Of a DNA stretch of 64,000 nt, positions 24,001 to 27,000 are shown piece after piece. Position 1 is the first letter of the stretch. The number at the start of each line of letters is the position of its first letter. The DNA is taken from NCBI GenBank assembly GCA_051971635.1, contig JBFPLN010000003.1:256001-320000 (forward strand), read 5' to 3'. Origin of the DNA: Candidatus Atelocyanobacterium thalassae. Its GTDB lineage: Bacteria; Cyanobacteriota; Cyanobacteriia; Cyanobacteriales; Microcystaceae. A program made the position numbers.

Positions 24001-27000
24001 AAACATCGAATAGTTGTTGTTTTACCTGATCCGTTTGGTCCTAGTAGACCAAAGATTTCTCCCTTATTAATATTAAAGGAAATATCTTGAACTGCTTTTA
24101 CAGTATTAAAACTTTTTTGTAACGATTCAATTATAACTAAAGGAGTCATCATTAATTTTATTTTAGATAGAATTCAAGTGATCAAAAAGGTACTTATTAT
24201 CAACTTTTTCCTAAAAATTTTTTAAGTAAAAGTTTTTATATTAATAATAATACATCTTTTAAAAATCTATGTATTGATATCCATTAAATTCTTATACTTG
24301 CATAAAGTATTTGACTGCTTTTTTAACTAGATTTTAGATAAGCTATGTGTTTTTATTTTTTTGATTTACAGAATTTTAGATTATTTGAGCTTTATTATGG
24401 ATGTCTTTGCTTTAAAACTAGTTATTGATATTAAACAATACTTGTGATATGTATTTATCAGTCCAGGTTACGCCAAAAAAATTTTCTAAAATGCGACGGG
24501 TTTTATCGTTTTGTTTTTGTTTATTACAATAATACTCTTGTTCTTGTAAATTTAAATTTCTTTCATAATCAGAAACTATTTTAGAATTTGCTGATTGTTT
24601 GCAATGTATTTGCAGAATATTTTCAACTCGTTGAAGAAATTTATTTTCTTCTTTTAAGTTAAGAGGCTGTATAAATAAACAATATTCTGAGAATATATCT
24701 CCCCATTCTGGTAAATTACGAGTTACCGAAAAATCATAAATTTCTAGTTGAGATAATTTTTGTCTATATTCTCTAGAAAATTTTGTTTTAGAATTAGTTG
24801 GAGATAAATCAACAACTGCTGCACTGATCTTATTTTTTCCAATAACGAGATCGCATCCAAATATAGGCAGAGAATATTCAAAGCGAGGAAACATTACACA
24901 ATGAAGAATATCTAGTTTTTGCTCAAGCCTTACCAGCTCTAAATGAATCTTACGAAATTGATTTGATTGATAACACAAGTTTTGGATTATTAACTTGTCT
25001 TTTTCTAATGCACTTTCAATATAATTTAAATCTTTTGGTAATTTATATGGAGCTAAATAAAGCTCTTCCTCCCAGTAAGAAACTATAGAATTAGCCAGCT
25101 TATAAATTAAAGGATGTAAAGGCAAAAAAGTAGTTAAGTTTTGGGCCATCAATCTTTTAGTATTTGTAAATTTTCAATCATTAGATTAATAGAATCATAC
25201 AAAATATTTTTTCTTTACTTATTAAATCTTATTTGGTAAACGTGTATTTTTTGTACATCAATTATTTAGTCTAAAATTTCTTTGATAGCTAATTCTAGTT
25301 CCTTTTGATTTAAATCTGTAACAATAAAAACTTCTTGAACTGTTTTACCTTGTCTAGCTATGGCTTTATATCCCCCAAGAATTTGAACCGATATTCTTAA
25401 TTTTAAATGTGGGCAATGACCTTTAGCTCTGCCAATAACCCCAGGAGTAATGGTTCTAATACCTGGAAAAAAAACTAACTTTTCTAGAATAGGTATCAAA
25501 CCATCTAAATGAGTGGAATGATTCCAGATTAGTCTTCCTTTATTTTCCTGAGTCATAAATTCATATTCCTTCTAATGGAGCCATCGTTAATCCTTCACGA
25601 CGTAATTGTTGATGATATAGTTCTGCTTGCTCTAAAGGTCCTATCCAAACGGTTGCTAATTCTTCAAAATGTATTCTTTGAGTTAGCTCCCAAGCATAAC
25701 TTTTAGTCATTGCAGGTATATATCTTATTAAACAACTAGCAACATGATCAAAAGTATTAAAATCATCATTAAGAACAATTATTTTACAGCTAGGATAAGG
25801 CTTATGGTCAACAACTGTTAAATTTTTTGTGTGGATTGATGTAGATTTTTCTTGAATTGTTATGGACAATCTCTTGATCATGAATTTTAATAAATAAAAA
25901 ATTTTTGAAAATTATGAGTACAGCCTGGTTAAAAGTTTAACAATTTTTTACAAAAAAAACAGTTTCAATAAACTAATCAGCTTAATTATTTAAAATAATT
26001 ACTATACATTAAGAAAATTACACTTAAGGCTATTGGATATAAGGTTTATACTTTATCGAACTCAAAACTATATCCTAACAAGTTAAGTAATAATTATTAT
26101 ATTGAAAAGTTCTGAAAAATTTATTTTCAAAGTTTTTCTTGCGAGGAAAAGTAAATTTGTATGCGATTCATTCGTAATGAATCATATACATAGCAGATAG
26201 TTTATAGTTTGAAAATAAAGTCAAACTTAAAAGAGGTTTTAAAAGCCTTGCAGAAAATATCGTTCTTTATTAAATGCATCAGATGTATCTTGATTTACTA
26301 TAGATTGATATAAATATGGTATGAATAATAAATTTTATGATACAACGAAAAAAAGTACGTGATCTTCAATTAACTGCTTCTAAAAATTTTAATCTAGAAT
26401 GTACAAATGTTACAGTACCACTAAGATCTTATCTCCAGGAAACACAACGTCTAGTTAAAGTTCTTGCGGGGAAGAATATAACTGAAAAAATATCAGAGTT
26501 TGAGTTCCGTTTTCATATGAAAACCTTAAACTTTATAAATATCTACTCTTTTCAACCTGTGGTAACTATTAAAGTTTTATCAAATGAAAAGGGAGTAGTT
26601 TATTTTGAGTCTCAAGACTTTGAAATAATAGGAATTAATTATATAAATCATAATTTTTCTTTGAAGTTTCAAGGCAAATTATTTTCAAAAGAAACAAACA
26701 ATAAAATATTTTTACGAGGTCAAGCATACCTAGCTTCTTCTTTAGACCTGCCATCTAACTTATGGATAATTCCAAAATCTATATTAAAGAAAGCTGGTGA
26801 TACATTATTAAAAAATATTTTAGAGCGTATTAGTCAAAGTTTATCCAATGAGCTATTACATGATTATCAATACTGGGCTAGCTTACAAAAAAAATAAACT
26901 TTTTAAGGTTGCCATATAAATCTTTACCATGATGAAAAATTAATTAGAATTTCATAAAATATGTAAAATTATCTAGATGTTATAATTACTTTAATGTTTA

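What a model noticed while it worked through the whole genome (the two positions that open the first line are those of the whole stretch)
24418..25149. Phycocyanobilin reductase PcyA kept without heme oxygenase and without any phycobiliprotein
pcyA (g00573) is intact and under purifying selection, but no genome of the genus has a heme oxygenase to make its substrate biliverdin, and there are no phycobiliprotein, linker or lyase genes to use its product. I read this as a bilin pathway split between partners: biliverdin (or a heme oxygenase) comes from the host, and the phycocyanobilin serves a GAF-domain sensor kinase (CikA-like g00050 or g01113), giving the non-photosynthetic nitroplast a light or bilin signal for daytime N2 fixation. 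A host-dependent chromophore for an organelle-encoded photoreceptor would be new.
Evidence so far: g00573: NF002760 PcyA equivalog E 7e-100; 58% to PcyA of Crocosphaera subtropica; 85% to G002, dN/dS 0.099. Heme_oxygenase PF01126: 0 of 3 genus genomes at E<=0.01, control Synechococcus elongatus rings. Phycobilisome, PBS_linker_poly, CpcD, CpeS, NblA, HEAT_2 in missing.tsv with no hit here (81-86 of 88 family genomes). GAF domains only on three histidine kinases g00050, g01113, g01123. Search UCYN-A + 'heme oxygenase': 6 papers, none on this by title or abstract (listing only, call 102).
(Added by a program. Inside this text positions count along the whole contig: contig position 256,001 is position 1 of the stretch shown here. 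"Call 12" and the like, gene names such as g00115 and contig names such as C1 are that model's own, and its searches are not shown. The text may have been shortened before it was handed on; [...] marks where a part breaks off. The agent that wrote the report below was given it as the finding of a first reader that could run no searches.)

Follow-up and report, generated by a model that had tools for sequence, protein, structure and literature searches.

The report
Bilin enzyme kept, substrate enzyme lost
The nitrogen-fixing organelle of a marine alga, and separately similar symbionts of diatoms, keep the enzyme that makes the pigment phycocyanobilin but lost the enzyme that makes its precursor, most likely because they take the precursor from the host and use the pigment to support chlorophyll synthesis rather than to sense light.

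Summary
pcyA (24418-25149, minus strand) is intact, keeps 13 of 13 active-site residues checked and is under purifying selection. No heme oxygenase (HO), HO remnant, alternative heme degrader of the four families searched, or phycobiliprotein was found.

The same pattern arose independently in five reduced, PSI-less genomes of another genus (diazoplast-type): HO is dead in 5 of 5, while pcyA is open in 4 of 5. There pcyA decays only where gun4 and chlH are broken.

UCYN-A keeps PSI, ChlH and GUN4 with its phycocyanobilin-binding motif. The likeliest biliverdin source is the host, whose lineage is reported to lack PcyA; the source itself was not shown.

The photoreceptor reading is weaker. g01113 lacks the attachment Cys. 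CikA keeps it but lost the DXCF Asp and second Cys. CikA's cysteines do decay with pcyA in diazoplasts, so it is not excluded.

The presence/absence pattern is tabulated in a 2026 supplement; I found no interpretation of it in print. The pcyA-gun4 correlation rests on essentially one loss event.

The parts
24418..25149 (-). pcyA, phycocyanobilin:ferredoxin oxidoreductase, 243 aa, intact
   Evidence: dN/dS 0.11-0.17 among the three genus genomes
24850..24945 (-). codons for His74, Glu76, Ile86, His88, Asp105 (numbering of PDB 2D1E); their catalytic roles are recalled, not from a call
   Evidence: alignment to 2D1E, mapping
24433..24720 (-). codons for Arg149, Trp154, Tyr212, Gln216, Asn219, Lys221, Thr222, Phe244 (bilin pocket, roles recalled), all kept
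25266..25556 (-). DUF2103 gene upstream; context only, also upstream of pcyA in G023
25561..25881 (-). clpS upstream; context only. In G023 a 650-aa gene, a fibrillin-like gene and apcD flank pcyA; none has a significant hit in G000, so pcyA survived deletions on both sides

Best explanation
PcyA is an active ferredoxin-dependent enzyme that reduces biliverdin to phycocyanobilin (PCB). The PCB binds the organelle's GUN4 (G000:C3:564342-564761), which stimulates and protects Mg-chelatase (ChlH) and so supports chlorophyll supply to the retained Photosystem I. Biliverdin comes from the host, as a metabolite or through an imported host HO. HO could be lost because the host can supply biliverdin; PcyA could not, because haptophyte and diatom hosts are reported to lack PCB-forming enzymes. 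Shown here: gene states, residues, selection, co-loss. From the literature: PCB-GUN4-MgCh and host enzyme content. Inferred: activity in the organelle, PCB binding by this GUN4, host origin of biliverdin.
For: (1) pcyA, gun4 (LLNQLR motif) and chlH are intact in 3 of 3 UCYN-A genomes and in G060, G061, G063. In G057 pcyA has a stop and D105N, gun4 has 5 stops, and chlH is a remnant. In G062 chlH is broken, gun4 has a stop at codon 10, and pcyA is open but has N219K and 17 changes plus one end gap at 104 invariant columns. (2) pcyA dN/dS is 0.21 on branches that keep chlH and 0.41 on those that lost it (bootstrap P 0.007-0.02); four neighbouring control genes have ratios 0.85-1.44 against 1.95 for pcyA. 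(3) HO lesions are shared: a 61-nt deletion in ho1 of G061 and G062, and stops plus a 2-nt deletion in ho2 of G060 and G061. HO therefore died before these genomes split, and pcyA was selected afterwards. (4) The GUN4 paralogue, reported to lack the bilin-binding Asn, is intact in 5 of 5 including G057. (5) UCYN-A GUN4 matches the Synechocystis GUN4 of the PCB complex 7E2T at E 1.9e-74 with an identical motif. (6) PCB raises MgCh activity more than tenfold through GUN4, and pcyA is essential although phycobilisomes are not (PMC10156173 Introduction). Stramenopiles and most haptophytes have PebA/PebB homologues rather than PcyA/HY2 (same paper). (7) No ABM/IsdG, HemS or Haem_oxygenas_2 match in 4 of 4 symbiont genomes tested, and no DUF2470 in 8 of 8.
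Against: G057 and G062 are sisters (bootstrap 97), so the co-loss is essentially one event. CikA's GAF decays in the same two genomes (G062 loses the DXCF Cys, G057 both Cys; dN/dS ratio 2.26, P 0.013), so the diazoplast data do not separate GUN4 from CikA. The rest of cikA is also somewhat relaxed (1.53, P 0.04). gun4 dN/dS is not raised in G062 (0.23 vs 0.21), and G062 pcyA is still open. G060 PcyA has D220G although its gun4 and chlH are intact. The diazoplast-type genomes have no PSI and are reported to lack ChlP, so why they keep Mg-chelatase is itself unexplained. Only six host proteins were found enriched in one diazoplast (PMC12176269), so an imported HO is unlikely there. No host HO with an import signal, no biliverdin transporter and no expression of pcyA was shown.
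Confidence: 0.5

Rival explanations
1. One reading: PCB is kept mainly as chromophore or ligand for the CikA GAF domain (g00050), giving the organelle a light or bilin signal.
For: The attachment Cys is kept in 3 of 3 UCYN-A CikA and aligns with the chromophore Cys of solved cyanobacteriochromes. Both Cys are present in 29 of 29 free-living relatives examined. They are lost exactly where pcyA decays (G057, G062). Synechocystis CikA is reported to bind a chromophore (PMC11372060 passage).
Against: UCYN-A lost the DXCF Asp (D/N in 29 of 29 relatives) and the second Cys, with a deletion beside them. 32 of 91 near-invariant GAF columns are changed, so keeping any one column has about a 65% prior. 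cikA is intact where pcyA is dead (G057). Synechococcus CikA senses quinone redox, not light. kaiA and kaiB are reported absent in UCYN-A. g01113 and the Hik2-like kinase lack the Cys.
Confidence: 0.14
2. PCB serves GUN4, but biliverdin is made inside the symbiont without a canonical HO, by non-enzymatic coupled oxidation of heme or by an unrecognised enzyme.
For: Ferrochelatase is intact in 4 of 4 symbionts tested, so heme can be made in place. HMOX1-independent bilin accumulation is reported in Chlamydomonas chloroplasts (PMC9393634 abstract). Diazoplasts import few proteins. GUN4 would need only small amounts (inference).
Against: None of four alternative degrader families was found. The single PNPOx-fold hit is read as PdxH from its size, not scanned. 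HO is present in 168 of 168 sampled genomes of families f2-f30, so free-living cyanobacteria do not get by without it. Radical-SAM, Dyp and P450 routes were not tested.
Confidence: 0.15
3. PcyA is kept for a biliverdin-independent role tied to the chlorophyll branch, such as a scaffold for its enzymes or a reductase of another tetrapyrrole.
For: It would explain HO loss in both lineages without any import. The Chlamydomonas PCYA1 FDBR domain binds LPOR (PMC5974162 abstract), and PcyA1 is listed in PDB 8XKS/8XQW/8XQX (a search listing ties PcyA1 to a chloroplast import-motor paper). The co-loss with chlH fits equally well.
Against: All 13 active-site and pocket residues checked are kept, as is the PCB-specific motif of GUN4. 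lpor is listed as absent from UCYN-A.
Confidence: 0.13
4. PCB made in the symbiont is exported to the host as a retrograde signal, since the host cannot make it.
For: PCB export to the cytosol is reported in Chlamydomonas (PMC5974162 abstract). The hosts' lineages are reported to lack PcyA.
Against: It does not predict co-loss with the symbiont's own gun4 and chlH. No host receptor is known to me.
Confidence: 0.05
5. pcyA is a relic awaiting decay.
For: It is decaying in G057 and G062.
Against: dN/dS is 0.11-0.17 at dS 0.6-0.7 within UCYN-A, with upper 95% bounds of 0.18-0.26. Its flanking genes were deleted. Dispensable genes in the diazoplast-type genomes carry many stops (HO 8 in about 160 codons in G060), whereas pcyA has none in 4 of 5.
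Confidence: 0.03

Closest known systems
Chlamydomonas HMOX1-PCYA1-GUN4-CHLH bilin control of chlorophyll synthesis (PMC9393634 Introduction, PMC10156173)
   Same: PcyA kept without phycobiliproteins or phytochrome; GUN4 with LxNxLR; ChlH and PSI present
   Different: Chlamydomonas has its own plastid HO. Here HO is absent, and the same loss occurred in two symbiont lineages.
Synechocystis PcyA (PDB 2D1E) and GUN4-PCB (PDB 7E2T)
   Same: Orthologues; active-site residues and bilin motif kept
   Different: No phycobilisome, HO, BvdR or lyases in the UCYN-A genome
Host-complemented pathways of the nitroplast (PGLS, ThrC, PyrE, IspD, Fmt imported with a uTP; PMC12377750 and PMC12176269 passages)
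   Same: A single missing step in an otherwise kept pathway
   Different: HO is not among the examples I could read; the full import list was not available. Diazoplasts show the same gap with almost no protein import.
SyCikA (Slr1969) photoactive GAF (seen second-hand)
   Same: Same orthologous kinase, attachment Cys kept
   Different: DXCF Asp and Cys lost, local deletion, 42-47% identity to the G023 GAF
Prochlorococcus pcyA without phycocyanin (recalled; pcyA row seen)
   Same: PcyA without its usual antenna client
   Different: The 39 sampled genomes of family f25, which includes 1.6-1.9 Mb genomes I read as picocyanobacteria, all keep HO

Membership tests
PcyA (ferredoxin-dependent bilin reductase) | Equivalog score above cut-off and above the Peb models | tested here: met
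   328.5 bits vs 206; Peb models 25-75 bits
PcyA (ferredoxin-dependent bilin reductase) | His74, Glu76, Ile86, His88, Asp105 and pocket residues (list recalled) | tested here: met
   13 of 13
PcyA (ferredoxin-dependent bilin reductase) | Four-electron reduction of biliverdin to PCB | not testable with these tools
   needs an assay
Canonical HO-PcyA pathway | Heme oxygenase in the same genome | tested here: not met
   0 of 3 genus genomes; no remnant in G000
Canonical HO-PcyA pathway | Phycobiliprotein clients | tested here: not met
   PF00502 0 of 3
Bilin-binding GUN4 orthologue | LxNxLR motif with the Asn, plus GUN4_N domain | tested here: met
   LLNQLR in 3 of 3; PF16416 and PF05419
Bilin-binding GUN4 orthologue | Partner ChlH intact | tested here: met
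   open, dN/dS about 0.065
Bilin-binding GUN4 orthologue | PCB binding and MgCh stimulation | not testable with these tools
   needs an assay
DXCF cyanobacteriochrome (CikA g00050) | First (attachment) Cys | tested here: met
   3 of 3
DXCF cyanobacteriochrome (CikA g00050) | DXCF Asp and second Cys | tested here: not met
   ESKIF/ESKVL/ESKVF against D/N-x-C-F in 29 of 29 relatives
DXCF cyanobacteriochrome (CikA g00050) | Covalent bilin and photoconversion | not testable with these tools
   needs co-expression
Cyanobacteriochrome (g01113, DICT-GAF kinase; Hik2-like kinase) | Attachment Cys | tested here: not met
   Ser/Thr in 3 of 3 UCYN-A and Ser in 4 of 4 relatives for g01113; none in the Hik2-like kinase
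Non-canonical heme degraders | IsdG/ABM, HemS, HO-like, or HugZ (DUF2470 + PNPOx) gene | tested here: not met
   G023 itself lacks HemS and HO-like matches
Non-canonical heme degraders | ChuW-type radical SAM, Dyp, P450 | not tested
   a HemN-like gene exists but was not analysed
uTP-imported host enzyme | Host HO with a C-terminal UCYN-A transit peptide | tested here: inconclusive
   120 of 178 long HO hits and 57 of 204 long HemE hits inspected; no shared tail, and no uTP reference was at hand

The most novel reading that the evidence does not exclude
Two independently derived nitrogen-fixing organelles became biliverdin auxotrophs. Host biliverdin, converted to PCB inside, would act as a host-held switch on the organelle's chlorophyll/PSI supply through GUN4, and possibly also on a CikA sensor. 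In diazoplasts, which import almost no protein, this would be control through a metabolite, preceding genetic integration.
Probability: 0.3. Interest if true: 0.8.

Novelty: new variant of a known kind. Interest (0 to 1): 0.56.

Why it matters
It names a specific, testable host dependence of the nitroplast and a possible lever by which the host controls its PSI energy supply. It offers a natural genetic test of why pcyA is essential in cyanobacteria: it persists with GUN4/ChlH after the antenna and HO are gone, and decays when they go. It also bears on the open question of why some PSI-less diazoplasts keep most of the chlorophyll pathway. Anyone transplanting such organelles would need to supply biliverdin.

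Tried and rejected
Search for a host HO with an import tail: long HO homologues and long HemE homologues as a route to a uTP reference gave nothing recognisable; inconclusive.

RNA runs: no RNA holder listed. The pcyA, gun4 and cikA locus tags were not in the expression sheets searched of PMC6315102 (one file cut when stored, two without text), whereas chlH was; not informative.

PcyA-GUN4 complex prediction: no answer, score 0.00; no evidence either way. AlphaFold model of the UCYN-A CikA GAF from a 3-row alignment: mean pLDDT 41, unusable.

Adjacent ABC permease as a bilin transporter: rejected; it is intact in 5 of 5 genomes tested, including G057, and unlinked to pcyA in the four where both positions were seen on one contig.

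BvdR as proof of biliverdin in diazoplasts: only weak. It is intact in 5 of 5 at dN/dS 0.17-0.36, but Arg185 (invariant in 22 of 22 relatives; catalytic role recalled) is His in 4 of 5.

A scan of the published orthologue table for other co-lost genes failed. Promoter scan was below chance; no RNA family lies near pcyA. No earlier findings. Branch dN/dS values come from pairwise distances only, so short branches are noisy.

Full report
OBSERVATION. The window lies on G000:C3 of a 1.47 Mb genome. The ORF at 24418-25149 (minus) is PcyA: 328.5 bits on NF002760 against a cut-off of 206, E 5.7e-78 to the solved Synechocystis enzyme. All 13 active-site and pocket positions checked are kept (their roles are recalled). 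dN/dS among the three genus genomes is 0.11-0.17 at dS 0.6-0.7, similar to free-living pairs (0.08, 0.16). The genes flanking pcyA in G023 have no significant hit in G000. Heme oxygenase matched 0 of 3 genus genomes but 78 of 81 non-symbiont family genomes; the three misses are fragmented assemblies. No remnant was found. In a phylum sample, 168 of 168 genomes of families f2-f30 had HO; 11 further families gave 2 of 209, and the no-match rows shown there belong to other classes, which I read as non-photosynthetic. Phycobiliproteins matched 0 of 3. Ferrochelatase, psaA/psaB and chlH are intact, so this is a chlorophyll-making, PSI-bearing organelle.

A SECOND LINEAGE. Five reduced (2.5-3.1 Mb) genomes of genus g15 (G057, G060-G063) lack intact PSI and fit the description of diatom diazoplasts. 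HO is a stop-ridden pseudogene in three and undetected in two, while pcyA is open in four. A 61-nt deletion in ho1 is shared by G061 and G062, and stops plus a 2-nt deletion in ho2 by G060 and G061, so HO died before they split. pcyA still shows dN/dS 0.21-0.25 among G060, G061 and G063 (upper 95% bounds 0.34-0.41). PcyA was thus selected without HO in two lineages.

WHAT PCYA TRACKS. G060, G061 and G063 keep gun4 and chlH. G057 has pcyA with a stop and D105N, gun4 with five stops and only a chlH remnant. G062 has broken chlH, gun4 with an early stop, and an open but eroding pcyA. pcyA dN/dS is 0.41 on the chlH-lost branches against 0.21 elsewhere; four neighbouring controls give ratios 0.85-1.44 against 1.95. 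The GUN4 paralogue stays intact in all five. UCYN-A GUN4 carries the LxNxLR motif and matches the protein of the PCB complex 7E2T. PMC10156173 (Introduction and one Results section read) reports that PCB stimulates Mg-chelatase through GUN4, that the motif's Asn is needed for binding and is absent in paralogues, and that stramenopiles and most haptophytes lack PcyA/HY2. That last point would explain why the cut falls at biliverdin: the host could supply biliverdin (host HO assumed, not shown) but not PCB. Against this: G057 and G062 are sisters, so this is one event; gun4 dN/dS is not raised in G062; the non-GAF part of cikA is also relaxed (P 0.04).

THE GAF KINASES. Of three, only CikA has Cys at the attachment position; g01113 has Ser/Thr and its relatives Ser. 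In the 29 best-scoring non-symbiont CikA loci (of 85 matches) both Cys are invariant and the first is followed by Leu, so Cys-His was the wrong test. UCYN-A keeps the first Cys but lost the DXCF Asp and second Cys, has a deletion beside them, and differs at 32 of 91 near-invariant columns. In the diazoplast-type genomes both Cys are kept in G060, G061 and G063, one is lost in G062 and both in G057. This favours CikA as a second bilin client there. But the feature common to every genome with a sound pcyA is intact GUN4 + ChlH, and cikA itself persists where pcyA is dead.

SOURCE OF BILIVERDIN. This was not shown. ABM/IsdG, HemS and HO-like families were absent in 4 of 4 symbionts tested and DUF2470 in 8 of 8; radical-SAM, Dyp and P450 routes were not tested. 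The nitroplast imports more than 350 host proteins, whereas only six were enriched in one diazoplast (PMC12176269 passages). I could not recognise a tagged host HO. BvdR, another biliverdin user, is intact in 5 of 5 diazoplast-type genomes and not found in UCYN-A, but carries R185H in four. Bilin export from the Chlamydomonas plastid (PMC5974162 abstract) and HMOX1-independent bilin there (PMC9393634 abstract) are precedents for import and for an internal source respectively.

WHAT IS IN PRINT. Supplementary Table S2 of PMC12903740 lists ho1/ho2 as absent from UCYN-A and six diazoplasts, pcyA as broken in two, gun4 as absent in three, chlH as broken in three and cikA as intact in all (rows seen). 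Its main text has no occurrence of pcyA, bilin or GUN4 and explains the kept chlorophyll pathway by feedback regulation (section read). A metabolic model simply dropped phycocyanobilin for UCYN-A (PMC8143392 passage). Seven searches (40 of 189 listed, 25 of 49) showed no paper interpreting the gap. Coale et al. 2024 and Zhang et al. 2021 were not held. The nitroplast protein table and Data S1 of PMC13104995 (passages only) were not seen and may already list an imported HO. Supplements of PMC12377750 and PMC11070190 gave no hits for the terms tried. Other papers seen as passages only: PMC10151467, PMC11372060, PMC12377750, PMC6315102, PMC12234771, PMC12016751; PMC3546692 gave only a reference entry.

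VERDICT. The feature is real and broader than reported. The most likely working is the known PCB-GUN4-Mg-chelatase control fed by host biliverdin (0.5). Rivals are an internal biliverdin source (0.15), a CikA sensor (0.14), a biliverdin-independent role (0.13), export to the host (0.05) and a relic (0.03). It is a new variant of a known kind; interest 0.56.

Noticed in passing
L190, L191, L216, L219, L220 (bvdR of G057, G061, G060, G062, G063): Biliverdin reductase is intact and under purifying selection in all five HO-less diazoplast-type genomes, with Arg185 changed to His in four; not found in the three UCYN-A genomes. It may have a changed substrate.
   Followed up: partly
L126-L130 (CikA GAF of G060, G057, G061, G062, G063): All five gained a new Cys five residues before the attachment Cys (Tyr in free-living relatives); G057 keeps it after losing both canonical Cys.
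   Followed up: no
L077-L079 (chlH of G060, G061, G063): ChlH is under strong selection (dN/dS 0.08-0.10) in genomes without intact PSI; what Mg-porphyrins do there is unexplained.
   Followed up: partly
L116-L120: The stand-alone DUF2470 heme-binding protein is present in 5 of 5 free-living relatives and absent from 8 of 8 symbionts, the same pattern as HO.
   Followed up: no
L088-L092, L139, L140: A 746-748 aa membrane GAF kinase is intact in all five diazoplast-type genomes but has no orthologue-level hit in G000; its G023 relative has no attachment Cys by eye.
   Followed up: partly
window 24418-25149: UCYN-A PcyA differs at 12 otherwise invariant columns in all three genomes, clustered at G39-G47 and A70-G73; this may be AT drift or a changed partner surface.
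   Followed up: no
window 21832-24152: ABC ATPase, permease and a 107-aa protein with no Pfam or NCBIfam match lie downstream of pcyA; the permease is a conserved gene, unlinked to pcyA in relatives.
   Followed up: partly
window 28648-28719 and 48549-48899: A tRNA gene and the RNase P RNA gene; ordinary.
   Followed up: no
G037: A 99% complete, 590-contig family genome with three bilin reductases but no HO match; probably an assembly gap, not checked.
   Followed up: no
P0014: A 365-aa database protein joining a heme oxygenase to a partial bilin reductase domain; fusion or artefact.
   Followed up: no
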